64,000 bases of DNA from the NCBI RefSeq assembly GCF_046105845.1, contig NZ_CP151004.1. One strand, 5' to 3'. Positions 32,875 to 36,604 of the stretch are shown piece by piece. A program made the position numbers and the translations under genes. The notes below the pieces were generated by a model that was not told where the DNA came from, did not search any database, and was given only the letters and a program-made list of their open reading frames with translations. This stretch comes from Escherichia coli. GTDB taxonomy: Bacteria > Pseudomonadota > Gammaproteobacteria > Enterobacterales > Enterobacteriaceae. Positions within the stretch are counted from its first letter, which is position 1. Every line of letters begins with the position of its first letter.

Positions 32875-33118
32875 TAATCTTACAGGGAGATTCCTTATCT
32901 CCCTGACATTTATCCTTTATTGACTACACAACAATAATGAAATTACTCAAAAAGAAATTTCATTAAAGAAACAAAAAAGCAGTAACTCAATCATTAAGAT
33001 TATTAGAAACCCTTTGAAGGGATTATAAATAAAGCCAGAAATCTTGGTTCCAAAGCTGGCAACAACTAACCAGTTAAAACATACGCATCAAAATCAGATA
33101 AACATTTGAGGTATTGTT

Positions 33119-34261
33119 ATGACAAATAAACACCCATCATTGTTTTCTCCTTTTATGCTGACAGAAAAAATAAAGCTACGTAATCGTATCGTTATGGCTC
33201 CTATGACGACCTGGTCAGCGAATCCTGATGGAACCATCTCTGAGCAAGAACTCGAATTTTATAAACGCCGCTCACAAAATGTTGGTTTAGTAATAACAGG
33301 ATGCACCTATGTCACGCCAAGCGGCATTGGGTTTACTCATGAATTTGCCGCGTATGACGACCGTTTCATTAACAGCCTTGAAAAGTTAGCAGCTGCAGCC
33401 AAAAGTGGCGGTGCTCCGGCTATTTTGCAGATTTTCCACGCCGGTAATAAAGCCATCCCGGAGCTTGTGCCAAATAACGATGTTATTAGTGCCAGCGCAT
33501 CAAGCGTAAAATCTGGTGATTTTATGAAGAGAGTGGTACAAAGCAGGGAAATGACTGAAAACGAAATTCAGGAAACCATTAGAGCATTCGGAGATGTCAC
33601 AAAAAGGGCGATTAAAGCAGGTTTTGATGGCGTTGAACTTCATGGTGCGCACGGATTCCTTCTGCAGAATTTCTTCTCCCCTCTATTTAACCAGCGTAAT
33701 GACCGATGGGGAGGAGATCTTGAAGGACGTATGCGCTTCCCGCTGGCCGTATTACAGGAAGTAAAAAATGTAGTCTATGAATATGCGACAAAGCCCTTTG
33801 CTATCGGTTACAGAATATCTCCTGAAGAATCTGTAACAGGGGGGCTGCGGATAGAGGATACTTATAAACTCCTTGATCGACTCATTTCATCCGGTATTTC
33901 GTATATACATACCTCGCTGGTCAGTATTAACGATAGCTACCCTGTTGAGTCGCCAAATGGCCCCCGAACTATTGAATTGATTTTAAATCATATTGCAGGC
34001 AGAGTGCCGGTAATCGCTGCAGGTAAAATACGCACACCGTCTCAGGCTCAAGAAGCAATTTCCGCTGGCCTGCCACTTGTTGCGATCGGTAAAGGGCTGG
34101 TGATAAATCCAGAATGGGTGACTTTAGCTGAATCAGGTAGAGGCCATGAAATTCAAACAACCCTTAATCCACAACTTGTTCCTGAATTAACCATTCCGGA
34201 TAAACTATGGGATCAAATTCAGGCATCGAAAGGAACTGGCTGGTTTCCGTTAATGGATTAA
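33119..34261 (+). CDS. NADH:flavin oxidoreductase, Old Yellow Enzyme family
   Basis: 380 aa; OYE-like N-terminus (RNRIVMAPMTT...QIFHAGNKA...ELHGAHGFLLQNFFSP). Confidence 0.8.
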   Translation: MTNKHPSLFSPFMLTEKIKLRNRIVMAPMTTWSANPDGTISEQELEFYKRRSQNVGLVITGCTYVTPSGIGFTHEFAAYDDRFINSLEKLAAAAKSGGAPAILQIFHAGNKAIPELVPNNDVISASASSVKSGDFMKRVVQSREMTENEIQETIRAFGDVTKRAIKAGFDGVELHGAHGFLLQNFFSPLFNQRNDRWGGDLEGRMRFPLAVLQEVKNVVYEYATKPFAIGYRISPEESVTGGLRIEDTYKLLDRLISSGISYIHTSLVSINDSYPVESPNGPRTIELILNHIAGRVPVIAAGKIRTPSQAQEAISAGLPLVAIGKGLVINPEWVTLAESGRGHEIQTTLNPQLVPELTIPDKLWDQIQASKGTGWFPLMD

Positions 34262-34733
34262 ATATCTATTACTCTCCCGAGAGTAAAACTATCAAATCAA
34301 TGAGTAACCGATACAGCCTCACAAATTCTTTCAGATAATTAACCCGTCACTGCGGCACGTTCTCTCGTAAGGCGTGCCTGCAGTGTAATCCAGTATGTAT
34401 CTGGCATAGTTGACGGTTTAATAGAACTCAATTCCTCTCCCAGGTCACCAACAACGATATCTTGTATAACACCCCAGGAGATACGACATTATGATGAGAT
34501 GAGGTATGCTCCTCAGCGCCAATCAACGCCAGGGCTGGGCCAGTTTTGAGATCAGACTCATTCCCGGACTGACTTCAGGCGACATATATCAATGACGTTG
34601 GGGCAATAAAAGATAGCCGATGTAATACATCTATTCAAATTTGTGATACATGTCAAAAAATTGGTTGACCAAACTCGTTATTTATATAAGGGCACTTACG
34701 AAGTGCACTCTTTTTTAAAGCGAGGAAGTACCA

Positions 34734-34835
34734 ATGAAAGAGAATAAAGTACAGCAAATCAGTCATAAACTGATTAATATCGTTGTTTTTATCGCAATTG
34801 TAGAATACGCCTATTTATTTCTCCATTTCTATTAA
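34734..34835 (+). CDS. ykgR: Small membrane protein YkgR (33 aa)
   Basis: ORF MKENKVQQISHKLINIVVFIAIVEYAYLFLHFY; matches recalled YkgR; hydrophobic C-terminal half. Confidence 0.7.
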   Translation: MKENKVQQISHKLINIVVFIAIVEYAYLFLHFY

Positions 34836-35157
34836 TAACGGCAGTAAACTGTTCACTTCAGTGATATTTAAAATATGCATCCTCTCCCTTTTTGTAAGTA
34901 ATTATTATATCCGTGGGAGAGGAATACACGCTGTCAGGTAATCAATCATACTGCGATAAATCATCGGCCAGTAAAGTGGAGATAACCTCCATTCTCGAAA
35001 AAGCGAAACTATCATCAATCACTCATCCAGGCGTTTATGGGAGCGTCGCCAACGGCTGCTAACAATGCCAGACTTCCCCGTTGGGGAAATTCCACATACC
35101 ACAAATAGTCACAGGGATTGGGTGTTGAAATGATCCGGATGAGCATGTATCTTTATG

Positions 35158-35175
35158 GTTATGTTATAACATAAC
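35158..35175. promoter_or_regulatory. Zur box: perfect 18-bp palindrome GTTATGTTATAACATAAC upstream of ykgM
   Basis: Perfect palindrome read directly 9 bp upstream of the ykgM start; matches Zur-box consensus. Confidence 0.85.
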
Positions 35176-35183
35176 AGGTAAAA

Positions 35184-35450
35184 ATGATGAAACCCAATAT
35201 CCATCCTGAGTATCGTACTGTGGTGTTCCATGACACCAGTGTTGATGAGTACTTTAAAATCGGCTCGACTATCAAAACAGACCGTGAGATTGAGCTGGAT
35301 GGCGTAACGTATCCGTACGTGACAATTGATGTCTCTTCGAAATCGCACCCGTTCTATACAGGGAAGCTGAGAACAGTAGCATCAGAAGGAAATGTTGCAC
35401 GGTTCACCCAACGTTTTGGTCGTTTTGTTAGCACGAAAAAGGGGGCGTGA
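35184..35450 (+). CDS. ykgM: Zinc-independent ribosomal protein L31 paralog (type B)
   Basis: 88 aa [18 protein letters not shown]...; lacks the Zn-ribbon Cys pairs; Zur box upstream. Confidence 0.92.
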
Positions 35451-35590
35451 TGAAAGTCCTTAACTCTCTGCGTACCGCAAAAGAACGCCATCCAGACTGT
35501 CAGATTGTGAAGCGAAAAGGACGGCTATATGTGATTTGTAAATCTAATCCACGTTTTAAGGCCGTTCAGGGTCGTAAGAAAAAACGTTGA
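35450..35590 (+). CDS. ykgO: Ribosomal protein L36 paralog
   Basis: 46 aa [46 protein letters not shown]; start overlaps ykgM stop (TGATG). Confidence 0.9.
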
Positions 35591-35996
35591 TTCAAAATTC
35601 GACGGATTAATGATATTTGTCTGATTAATAATCAGACCTGATTAATGTTGGTGTATTTATTACACCAGCATTAATTTTCTTGGGGATGTATCTTCCTGTT
35701 CATTTAAGGTCAACTGCCTGACGTTTCTCTCCGAATATTCCATTATATTAATGTTGACTTGTTAACCAGGTGCGCCCTGTATGCTGGCATCAACTCTCTT
35801 TTAGACTGAACACGCCACTCAGTTTCCTCCCTTTGCGACGCAGCCTGCATTTACACTCAAACGGTTAAGATGATAAATGTGGTAAATCTGTTGGTACTGA
35901 CATAAAAACGTTTACGTCACAGGAACGGCCTGATCCACCGGTAACCCCATCGCCGACGTTCGAGTGCCAGTTAGAGTAACGCGCACAGATGACTGA

Positions 35997-36221
35997 ATGC
36001 AGTGCCCTGGCAAAGAGGCCATCGTTCCTGTGACAACTGGCAGTCTTCGTTTAACTTCACTTAATTTGGCTCTTAGGGGGCTTACCGGACAGATGACGTA
36101 CTTACACCTGTTTAATTTTTCATCACTTATTGGGATGAACACCCATAACCATTTTGTGCGGCATGTTAATCCATTAAAACACCTTACTGATTGGCAAATC
36201 ATCTTTAATTATGACTCATGA
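35997..36221 (+). CDS. Hypothetical small protein (possibly ykgL-like)
   Basis: 74-aa ORF between ykgO and ecpR; overlaps an opposite-strand ORF; no recognisable motif. Confidence 0.2.
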   Translation: MQCPGKEAIVPVTTGSLRLTSLNLALRGLTGQMTYLHLFNFSSLIGMNTHNHFVRHVNPLKHLTDWQIIFNYDS

Positions 36222-36604
36222 TAGTTTTATATTCTATTTCTTATCATTTAAACTTGTTTTTTTACTAGTCCATCACACAACACATTAAGACTATTCCTAA
36301 CACCTCAGGGCAAAGTTCCTGGCTAATATAAAATGCAAGTAAGAATTGAACGTTATATTGCCAATAACCTTATGAAACTGAATGTCTTTTTCTTCTTATC
36401 AAAAAAGCAATATTTTCATTTTTTGTAAATATTGACTTAACCATGGAATTCCTTTTCTGTTCACATATTGACACTCATCAGGAAAAAAACATAAATTTAA
36501 ACCTAATCGAAATAATTAAAACTTAATCTCGTTTAACCTATATTGATATGTGCTACGTATCTTATTTACTTCCGATTTACTAAAGAAACTGAATGTACCT
36601 GTAA

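What the first reader, a model, noticed from the sequence alone, without database searches (positions are those of the whole stretch)
34665..34733. Promoter-like hexamer and hairpin-plus-U-tract immediately upstream of the ykgR start codon
TTGACC at about 34665 is followed by a short hairpin (gcactt-acg-aagtgc, about 34693-34707) and a TTTTTT run ending about 17 bp before the ykgR ATG. A terminator-like structure placed inside a 5' leader could act as an attenuator controlling expression of the small membrane protein, or it may simply terminate read-through from the upstream OYE gene.
Basis: seen in the sequence. Interest (0 to 1): 0.3.

Follow-up and report, generated by a model that had tools for sequence, protein, structure and literature searches.

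The report
Conserved small hairpin before ykgR
A short, weak hairpin followed by six T's sits 17 bases before the E. coli small-membrane-protein gene ykgR; it is real and evolutionarily maintained, but it most likely marks the very 5' end of the ykgR message rather than being a regulatory attenuator, and it is an ordinary kind of element.

Summary
As a pattern this is at chance level (22 such sites in 20 kb, 21.6 expected) and the stem is weak (-4.8 to -6.6 kcal/mol).

Conservation sets it apart. The 113 bp before the ATG are 88-100% identical in two divergent Escherichia lineages whose adjacent intergenic DNA is 61-77% identical. One lineage carries a compensatory A-U to G-C change in the stem (chance about 0.01).

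TTGACC cannot be the -35 of a transcript that contains the whole hairpin: it would put +1 near 34700, in the loop. A conserved CRP-like site (TGTGA-N6-TCAAA, centre 34649.5) in class II geometry puts +1 at about G34691, one base before the stem. CRP activation of ykgR is my recollection of Hemm et al. 2010, not verified here.

My best reading (confidence 0.4) is a 5'-terminal stem-loop of a CRP-activated ykgR mRNA, with weak terminator likeness. I found no antiterminator, no conserved leader ORF and no Term-seq 3' end. No start-site data could be obtained, so rivals remain open. Interest is low.

The parts
34621..34691 (+). Phylogenetically footprinted ykgR promoter and regulatory block.
   Evidence: Identity to the E1V33 and E69 lineages is 89-100% here, against 61-77% in 34472-34620. 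The stretch 34662-34693 is invariant in all six lineage sequences.
34639..34660 (+). CRP-like 22-mer ATTTGTGATACATGTCAAAAAA. The core TGTGA-N6-TCAAA is at 34642-34657 and the centre is at 34649.5.
   Evidence: It has one mismatch to TGTGA-N6-TCACA, which is not significant alone (2 matches in the window, 2.05 expected). The half-sites are invariant while spacer positions 34651-34652 vary in both divergent lineages. CRP activation of ykgR is recalled from Hemm et al. 2010 (own knowledge, not checked here).
34661..34672 (.). In the favoured model it lies at about -30 to -19, so it is not a -35 element. It may be an operator for an unidentified regulator.
   Evidence: a unique perfect match in the window; the pattern is not significant by chance. 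Positions 34662-34672 are invariant across lineages; 34661 is C in E1V33. No usable -10 lies at 16-18 bp from TTGACC.
34679..34690 (+). AT-rich -10 region TATTTATATAAG. TATTTA (34679-34684) is the hexamer that fits a CRP site at -41.5. TATATA and TATAAG are alternatives.
   Evidence: Geometry computed from the sequence. All hexamers here lack either A at -11 or T at -7, and heuristic PWM scores are at background. The region is invariant in all lineages.
34690..34692 (+). Predicted transcription start (GGG; G34691 is favoured). This is inferred, not mapped.
   Evidence: CRP centre 34649.5 plus 41.5 equals 34691. This is inference only; no TSS dataset could be retrieved.
34692..34706 (+). Stem-loop GCACUU-ACG-AAGUGC, extendable to 34690-34709 through G91-C08 and G90-U09.
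   Evidence: Found by the scan. Free energy is -4.8 or -6.6 kcal/mol, and three representative stem pairs have probabilities 0.67-1.0. It carries a compensatory A34694G with T34704C change in Escherichia sp. E1V33.
34707..34716 (+). Spacer ACTC followed by the T6 run (34711-34716).
   Evidence: The T6 run is invariant in all lineages. Spacer positions 34707 (A/G within E. coli) and 34710 (C to A in E1V33) vary.
34722..34728 (+). Shine-Dalgarno sequence GAGGAAG of ykgR.
   Evidence: Read from the sequence. Predicted to be mostly unpaired (0.7) in transcripts starting at 34690-34692.
34734..34835 (+). ykgR coding sequence (33 aa small membrane protein).

Best explanation
The hairpin is the 5'-terminal stem-loop of the ykgR mRNA.

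Model:
- ykgR is transcribed from a weak, activator-dependent promoter. A CRP site centred at 34649.5 replaces the -35 element (class II arrangement).
- TATTTA at 34679-34684 serves as the -10, and transcription starts at about G34691.
- The message then begins pppG-[GCACUUACGAAGUGC]-ACUC-UUUUUU-AAAGC-GAGGAAG-UACCA-AUG, with the stem closing within 0-2 nt of the 5' end.
- A stem in that position is the classic arrangement that shields an E. coli mRNA from 5'-end-dependent RppH and RNase E attack.
- The unstructured U/A-rich stretch after it leaves the Shine-Dalgarno sequence open for ribosome loading.
- Being a hairpin followed by U6, it may also cause some promoter-proximal termination near +25 and block stray upstream transcription. 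It is too weak, and lacks any alternative fold, to be a regulated attenuator.
- TTGACC is not the -35. It lies in the promoter spacer inside a small palindrome.

Shown: the sequence features, their conservation, the compensatory change, and the absence of a competing fold. Inferred: the start site, CRP binding at this site, and the stabilising function.
For: - A sharp conservation boundary at 34621 gives a 113-bp block, which equals about -70 to +43 if +1 is 34691.
- CRP-like half-sites are conserved while the site's spacer varies.
- Only the -41.5 position places an AT-rich -10-like box correctly. The -61.5 and -71.5 positions would require -10 hexamers such as CGAAGT or TCTTTT.
- CRP activation of ykgR is recalled from Hemm et al. 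2010, J Bacteriol 192:46 (own knowledge, not verifiable here). YkgR is described as stationary-phase induced in PMC10502375.
- Genomic SELEX with RpoD holoenzyme alone found a promoter for ykgMO but none listed for ykgR (PMC3946193), and no good sigma-70 match exists. Both fit activator dependence.
- The compensatory A-U to G-C change shows that pairing matters, so both arms must be transcribed (P about 0.01).
- In transcripts starting at 34690-34692 the stem forms with probability about 1 and the SD is about 0.7 unpaired. Starting at 34694 or later destroys the stem.
- No Term-seq 3' end is reported here in K-12.
Against: - No experimental TSS could be retrieved.
- TATTTA lacks the T at -7, and every -10 candidate in the box lacks one of the two critical bases.
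- The CRP-like match alone is at chance frequency.
- Covariation rests on one event among three distinct sequences, and the tool's shuffle control is not significant (162 of 500).
- The invariance of the promoter 'spacer' 34662-34678 is not explained by this model.
- The invariant U6 immediately after the stem is what a terminator needs, not what a stabiliser needs.
- The best-scoring conserved sigma-70-like pair is TTCAAA-17-AAAATT (TSS about 34669), which would place the hairpin inside a 66-nt leader.
Confidence: 0.4

Rival explanations
1. The hairpin is a weak intrinsic terminator that insulates ykgR from transcription coming from the upstream hydrolase/OYE genes. The ykgR promoter overlaps it, for example TTGACC-16-TAAGGG or TTGGTT-18-TATAAG, with +1 at about 34697-34700. 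The hairpin is therefore not in the ykgR mRNA at all.
For: - The arrangement is stem, then 1-4 nt, then a perfect U6, on the + strand only.
- With the extension G91-C08 and G90-U09, the U tract starts 1 nt after the stem in all alleles.
- The U6 is invariant.
- TTGACC is the best -35-like hexamer here, and its geometry puts +1 in the loop.
- The upstream OYE gene is co-directional and intact in this strain and in E1V33.
Against: - The stem is weak (-4.8 to -6.6 kcal/mol), compared for instance with the ecpA terminator-like site of 8 pairs with 6 GC.
- It lies 430 nt from the OYE stop codon, and a far stronger conserved stem-loop lies 87 nt after that stop.
- TAAGGG and TATAAG lack the T at -7.
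- A CRP site at -47 to -50 would be on the wrong helical face for the recalled CRP activation.
- No 3' end is seen in K-12 Term-seq. K-12 lacks the OYE gene, so this is weak evidence.
Confidence: 0.25
2. The hairpin is a leader terminator or attenuator. Transcription starts upstream (for example about A34668 from TTCAAA-17-AAAATT). A fraction of transcripts stops at the U6, giving an RNA of about 49 nt, and the rest read through into ykgR.
For: - TTCAAA (34634-34639) and AAAATT (34657-34662) form the best conserved sigma-70-like pair. A at -11 and T at -7 are kept in all lineages.
- The invariance of 34668-34691 would then be RNA-level constraint on the leader's 5' end.
- The 34668-34740 fold has z = -2.0 and pairs CUCGU with GCGAG, which overlaps the SD.
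- An A/U-rich stretch followed by a hairpin and a U tail resembles an Hfq-binding 3' module (own knowledge).
Against: - The promoter score is at background level, with about 5 equally good matches per kb.
- The CRP-like site would lie in the spacer at -18.5, which is a repressing position. This contradicts the recalled CRP activation.
- No antiterminator fold exists and there is no conserved leader peptide.
- No 5'-UTR 3' end appears in Term-seq under three conditions.
- There is no Rfam match.
Confidence: 0.15
3. The hairpin has no RNA function. The inverted repeat is either a chance feature of AT-rich promoter DNA or a DNA-level palindromic operator at +2 to +16 for an unknown dimeric regulator. 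In this reading the T run is just AT-rich leader.
For: - The pattern occurs at chance frequency.
- Only one covarying pair exists, and the shuffle control is not significant.
- The whole block is under strong constraint of unknown nature, including the nearby TTGGTTGACCAA palindrome.
Against: - Two of only seven substitutions in the block hit the two partners of one stem pair and restore pairing (P about 0.007-0.011).
- A symmetric change in both half-sites of an operator would have to be tolerated or co-evolved.
- There is no second copy of the palindrome in the window.
Confidence: 0.15

Closest known systems
5'-terminal stabilising stem-loops of E. coli mRNAs, such as the ompA 5' UTR hairpin (Emory, Bouvet and Belasco 1992; own knowledge)
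   Same: A short stem-loop is predicted to close within 0-2 nt of the 5' end. It is followed by a single-stranded U/A-rich segment and an accessible SD.
   Different: The start site is inferred, not mapped. The stem is weaker and shorter than in ompA. No half-life data exist. The stem is followed by a perfect U6, which stabilisers do not need.
Rho-independent (intrinsic) terminators
   Same: A hairpin with a 3-nt loop is followed within 1-4 nt by six U's on one strand only. An A-rich stretch lies upstream.
   Different: The core stem has 6 bp with only 3 G-C pairs (-4.8 to -6.6 kcal/mol). It is located 17 nt before a start codon and 430 nt from the nearest upstream stop codon. No mapped 3' end exists in the published K-12 Term-seq tables.
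Transcription attenuators in 5' leaders (trp and pyrBI type, riboswitch expression platforms)
   Same: A terminator-like element lies between a promoter region and the SD of the regulated gene.
   Different: There is no mutually exclusive antiterminator, no conserved leader peptide, no aptamer (no Rfam hit) and a very short leader.
Class II CRP-dependent promoters such as galP1 (own knowledge)
   Same: A TGTGA-N6-TCAAA site lies 29.5 bp upstream of an AT-rich -10 box, there is no usable -35, and RNA polymerase recognition alone is poor.
   Different: The -10 (TATTTA) lacks the T at -7 and has no extended TG. CRP binding at this site was not tested here. An invariant palindrome sits in the spacer.

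Membership tests
Intrinsic (Rho-independent) terminator | A stable G+C-rich stem-loop. Typical stems are 5-14 bp with free energy well below about -8 to -10 kcal/mol. | tested here: inconclusive
   The stem has 6 bp (8 with a bulge), 3 G-C pairs and a 3-nt loop. Free energy is -4.8 or -6.6 kcal/mol in this strain, -9.3 in the common E. coli A34707G allele and -8.4 in E1V33. It passes the lenient scan but sits at the weak end.
Intrinsic (Rho-independent) terminator | A U tract immediately (0-2 nt) after the stem. | tested here: met
   The U6 at 34711-34716 starts 1 nt after the extended stem (G90-U09) and 4 nt after the core stem.
Intrinsic (Rho-independent) terminator | RNA 3' ends map to the U tract in vivo. 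| tested here: not met
   Adams et al. 2021 supplementary files 1-3 (stored uncut) hold no 3' end for ykgR or ykgP, nor at K-12 313240-313299. Caveats: only three conditions were sampled, K-12 lacks the upstream OYE gene, and RNAs of about 25-50 nt may escape the method.
Transcription attenuator | The terminator lies downstream of the gene's own transcription start. | not testable with these tools
   No TSS data could be retrieved. Sequence models place +1 at about 34669, about 34691 or about 34697-34700.
Transcription attenuator | An alternative antiterminator structure, leader peptide or ligand- or protein-binding element that switches the terminator. | tested here: not met
   Three representative hairpin pairs have probabilities 0.67-1.0, essentially unchanged whichever upstream start is used. 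The 22-aa leader ORF is not conserved. There is no Rfam family.
5'-terminal stabilising stem-loop | The stem closes within about 0-4 unpaired nt of the mRNA 5' end. | tested here: inconclusive
   This is met if +1 is 34690-34692, as the CRP class II geometry predicts. The start site is inferred only.
5'-terminal stabilising stem-loop | Base pairing, not sequence, is what is selected. | tested here: met
   There is one compensatory A-U to G-C change and no broken pair in any of three distinct alleles. The chance of this is about 0.007-0.011. It is a single event, so the support is thin.
5'-terminal stabilising stem-loop | The stem prolongs mRNA half-life. | not testable with these tools
   This needs rifampicin chase experiments on stem mutants.
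Sigma-70 promoter with TTGACC as the -35 element | A -10 hexamer (TATAAT-like, with A at -11 and T at -7) lies 16-18 bp downstream. | tested here: not met
   The hexamers at 16, 17 and 18 bp are TAAGGG, AAGGGC and AGGGCA. The tool's scan reports no promoter here.
Class II CRP-dependent promoter | A CRP consensus site is centred near -41.5, with conserved half-sites. | tested here: inconclusive
   The core matches 9 of 10 positions. The half-sites are invariant and the spacer is variable across lineages. The -41.5 position follows only if TATTTA is the -10. Binding was not tested.

The most novel reading that the evidence does not exclude
The hairpin and U6 act as a genuine promoter-proximal terminator on the CRP-dependent ykgR transcript itself, or on a transcript starting near 34668. 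Most initiations would then yield a tiny RNA of about 25-50 nt that standard Term-seq cannot see. ykgR expression would be set by how often polymerase escapes this site, for example through early-elongation state, Hfq or another factor binding the invariant 34662-34691 sequence. That would be a factor-tuned mini-attenuator without an antiterminator fold.
Probability: 0.07. Interest if true: 0.5.

Novelty: new member of a known kind. Interest (0 to 1): 0.2.

Why it matters
ykgR encodes a 33-aa membrane protein of unknown function that is used as a model for post-translational SRP targeting (PMC7549839). Knowing its promoter, start site and leader would help anyone who wants to express or perturb it at native levels. 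The analysis gives a concrete, testable map: a CRP site, a -10 region, a +1 at the foot of a conserved stem-loop, and an unexplained invariant palindrome. Beyond this gene the element is a routine example of a small 5' stem-loop or weak terminator, so it is not expected to change any general view.

Tried and rejected
Start-site and 3'-end data were sought without success.
- Hemm 2008 and 2010, Thomason 2015, the Storz 2014 review and the EcoSal small-proteome review are not held.
- The SMRT-Cappable-seq, Cappable-seq and Kim 2012 supplements hold nothing for ykgR or the expected coordinates.
- The Conway 2014, Dar and Sorek 2018, Term-seq 2022 and Rend-seq 2024 supplements are not held.
- The Reg-Seq 2025 preprint lists ykgR among its targets but reports no result for it.

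Other lines that led nowhere:
- Rfam gave no match in 33000-36500, even at E<=1.
- YkgR is too short for the protein-homology and related-locus tools.
- A degenerate N-terminal pattern found only two Escherichia genomes among GTDB species representatives and two E69-like metagenome contigs. The comparative depth is therefore three distinct leader alleles.

Ideas considered and rejected:
- The leader ORFs are not coding. The ATG 34650 ORF (22 aa) loses its start codon in other lineages. In the frame of the GTG 34643 ORF (34 aa), 5 of 7 substitutions are non-synonymous.
- A long-range AUUGGU (34660-34665) with ACCAAU (34730-34735) helix is broken by both E1V33 changes.
- The ATAACA-18-TATGAT promoter at 34466-34495 is not conserved.
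- Sigma-54, sigma-E, sigma-32 and minus-strand promoter readings fail on spacing or consensus.
- The FadR/PdhR-type operator reading for TTGGTTGACCAA has a spacer one base too short.
- There are no other copies of the hairpin palindrome or of the TTGGT-NN-ACCAA palindrome in the window.

Full report
**Locus.** The window around 34200-35200 is the E. coli ykgR region.
- A 380-aa Old Yellow Enzyme-type flavin oxidoreductase is at 33119-34261 (Pfam Oxidored_FMN, E=1.2e-77; RefSeq 'NADH-dependent flavin oxidoreductase').
- A 472-bp gene-free spacer follows.
- ykgR is at 34734-34835 (33 aa; NCBIfam YkgR equivalog).
- ykgM, ykgO and the ecp operon come next.
- From 34640 to 34790 the sequence is identical to K-12 MG1655, where ykgR is at 313141-313242 on the minus strand. 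K-12 data therefore apply directly. K-12 keeps only the last 90 bp of the OYE gene, as the pseudogene ykgP.

**Observation.** All three features are present.
- TTGACC is at 34665-34670.
- ACTC follows, then T6 at 34711-34716. Then come 17 nt containing the SD GAGGAAG (34722-34728) and the ATG at 34734.
- The motif is terminator-like only on the + strand.

**The pattern alone is at chance level.**
- The same scan finds 1 site against 1.9 expected in 2.5 kb, and 22 against 21.6 expected in 20 kb.
- The stem is weak. The core is -4.8 kcal/mol, and -6.6 when G91-C08 and G90-U09 are added.
- By comparison, the site after ecpA in the same scan has 8 pairs with 6 G-C.
- No sigma-70-type promoter passes the scan between 34496 and the ATG.

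**Conservation.**
- The locus is present in 5064 of 5426 complete E. coli genomes. The 120-nt leader is at least 99% identical in 4613 of 5068 records.
- The 32 nt covering the AT-rich box and the hairpin are identical in 5003 of 5060 records.
- All eight non-identical leaders I sampled carry the same change, A34707G, just after the stem.
- Outside E. coli proper the gene is rare. A degenerate search for the N-terminus across about 100,000 species representatives found only E. coli E69 and Escherichia sp. E1V33. A metagenome scan added two E69-like contigs.
- These two divergent lineages give a sharp footprint. Identity to the window is 61-77% in 34472-34620, rising to 89-100% from 34621 up to the hairpin at 34692. 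It is 88-100% in the hairpin/U-tract and SD segments, and 86-96% in the coding region.
- The stretch 34662-34693 is invariant in all six sequences.

**Covariation.**
- In E1V33 the stem reads GCGCTT-ACG-AAGCGC. Positions 34694 (A to G) and 34704 (T to C) are partners, so A-U becomes G-C.
- All 8 pairs are intact in all three distinct alleles.
- The tool's shuffle control is not significant with so few sequences (162 of 500).
- The stem was specified before the comparison. Placing the seven observed E1V33 substitutions at random in the 113-nt block produces such a compensated pair in 0.7-1.1% of trials.
- The likely intermediate is a G-U pair at -6.2 kcal/mol, which is nearly neutral. The other single change gives -2.7.
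- I take this as moderate, single-event evidence that the stem is selected as RNA.

**Where does transcription start?** This decides the interpretation, and I could not obtain it. Papers with genome-wide start sites were either not held or had nothing at the expected coordinates. The only usable experimental data are negative. The uncut Term-seq tables of Adams et al. 2021 (LB OD 0.4, LB OD 2.0, M63 glucose) list no 3' end for ykgR or ykgP, nor any at K-12 313240-313299.

Sequence reasoning gives three points.

(a) TTGACC cannot be the -35 of a transcript that contains the hairpin.
- A 17-bp spacer, a 6-bp -10 and about 7 bp put +1 near 34700, in the loop.
- The hexamers at 16-18 bp are TAAGGG, AAGGGC and AGGGCA.
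- TTGACC is embedded in a 12-bp near-palindrome, TTGGT-TG-ACCAA.

(b) No candidate promoter scores above background.
- With a heuristic PWM built from remembered consensus frequencies, every candidate has about 5 or more equally good matches per kb.
- The known ykgM promoter TTGAAA-17-TATCTT scores far higher. It is also the one listed in PMC3946193.
- The two candidates conserved in every lineage are TTCAAA-17-AAAATT (+1 about 34669) and TTGACC-16-TAAGGG (+1 about 34699).

(c) A CRP-like site lies in the conserved block.
- Its core TGTGA-TACATG-TCAAA is at 34642-34657.
- Alone it is not significant (2 matches in the window, 2.05 expected).
- Its half-sites are invariant, while spacer positions 34651-34652 changed in both divergent lineages.

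From memory, the abstract of Hemm et al. 2010 (J Bacteriol 192:46) reports 'CRP activation of ykgR'. I could not check this here. If it holds, the site must sit at an activating position.
- Its centre is 34649.5. The class II position (-41.5) gives +1 = 34691 and a -10 at 34679-34684 (TATTTA).
- The -61.5 and -71.5 positions would require -10 hexamers in CGAAGT or TCTTTT.
- The other two promoter candidates put CRP at -18.5 or about -49.5, which are non-activating positions.

A start at 34691 also makes the conserved block run from about -70 to +43, a normal promoter plus leader.

**Best model.**
- With +1 at G34691 (plus or minus 1), the hairpin occupies nucleotides +2 to +16 of the ykgR mRNA.
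- Folding transcripts that start at 34690-34692 gives the stem with probability about 1 and an SD that is about 0.7 unpaired. Starting at 34694 or later abolishes the stem.
- A stem-loop flush with the 5' end is the established arrangement for protecting E. coli mRNAs from 5'-end-dependent decay (own knowledge: Emory, Bouvet and Belasco 1992). I propose that as the main role.
- The U/A-rich segment would be an unstructured ribosome-loading region.
- Because the stem is followed by U6, some termination near +25 and some blocking of upstream read-through are plausible side effects.
- My confidence is 0.4. The start site, CRP binding and the stabilising effect are all inferred.

**Rivals.**
1. 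An insulating weak terminator with the ykgR start inside or after the stem (0.25). The terminator geometry and invariant U6 favour it. Against it stand the weak stem, the 430-nt distance from the OYE stop, and a much stronger conserved stem-loop 87 nt after that stop (34348-34385; -21.7 kcal/mol, z = -3.8, with compensatory CUGCGG/CUGCAG to CCGCAG/CUGCGG changes).
2. A leader terminator or attenuator transcribed from about 34669 (0.15). The best conserved -35/-10 pair and RNA-level invariance of 34668-34691 favour it. Against it: no antiterminator fold, a non-conserved leader ORF, no Rfam hit, no Term-seq 3' end, and a CRP site in a repressing position.
3. Chance, or a DNA operator (0.15). The chance frequency of the motif favours it; the compensatory change argues against it.

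A terminator-like element does lie just upstream of ykgR. However, the TTGACC-promoter-plus-leader-attenuator combination is geometrically impossible as described. The defining parts of an attenuator are absent. The 'OYE terminator' alternative is not the most economical reading.

**Novelty and interest.** This is a new member of a known kind: a small conserved 5' stem-loop or weak terminator in the control region of a known small-protein gene. Interest is low (0.2). The unexplained residue is the complete invariance of 34662-34691, including the TTGGTTGACCAA palindrome. This exceeds what a promoter spacer needs and points to an unidentified regulator or RNA-level function.

Noticed in passing
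window 34348-34385 (+): A strong G+C-rich stem-loop (CACUGCGGCACG...CGUGCCUGCAGUG, -21.7 kcal/mol, z = -3.8) lies 87 nt after the OYE gene stop codon, with no U tract after it. Its arms show compensatory changes in E1V33 and the E69-like contigs (CUGCGG/CUGCAG to CCGCAG/CUGCGG). It is probably the 3' stem-loop of the OYE transcript. K-12 retains it although the gene is deleted.
   Followed up: partly
window 34661-34672: The near-palindrome TTGGT-TG-ACCAA contains the TTGACC hexamer. It is invariant across lineages apart from a T-to-C change at 34661 in E1V33. It resembles GntR/FadR-family operators (the PdhR box AATTGGTnnnACCAATT, from memory), but its spacer is one base shorter. No regulator was identified.
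   Followed up: partly
L016 (E. coli E41) 1791-2534; L029 (E. coli YPE10) 300-420: Two natural strains carry IS insertions right at the hairpin. In E41 an IS1 (with deletion back to betA) ends so that homology resumes at window 34707. In YPE10 an IS2 is inserted after window 34699, in the hairpin loop. Both separate ykgR from its native upstream region.
   Followed up: partly
L019 (E. coli O157:H7 Balcarce_14.2) 514-614; window 34781-34790: ykgR is annotated as frameshifted in this O157:H7 genome, with one T missing in the GTTGTTTTT run. An ISEc8 lies just downstream. I did not check whether this is lineage-wide or a homopolymer sequencing error.
   Followed up: no
window 34707: There is a common E. 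coli polymorphism, A34707G, immediately 3' of the stem. All 8 sampled non-identical leaders carry it. A is the state in the divergent lineages. G raises the predicted hairpin stability from -6.6 to -9.3 kcal/mol.
   Followed up: partly
Genome contigs and metagenome-contig scans (L011, L012, L026, L028): ykgR appears confined to E. coli and very close cryptic Escherichia lineages. The MKENKxQQI pattern hit only 2 Escherichia genomes among about 100,000 species representatives. The other hits were unrelated chance matches.
   Followed up: partly
window 35125-35183 (+): The ykgM promoter TTGAAA-17-TATCTT is the same one listed in PMC3946193. It is followed by a Zur-box-like palindrome, ATGTTATAACATAAC, just before the ykgM start.
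   Followed up: no
window 34879-34923: An inverted repeat TCCTCTCCC...GGGAGAGGA with a 27-nt loop lies about 45 nt after the ykgR stop codon. No U tract follows it on either strand, and how the ykgR transcript ends is unclear.
   Followed up: no
L021 (E. coli C5) 1-164: In strain C5 the gene about 350 bp upstream of ykgR is yahI on the opposite strand. This implies a large deletion or rearrangement that removed the OYE region while keeping the ykgR leader.
   Followed up: no
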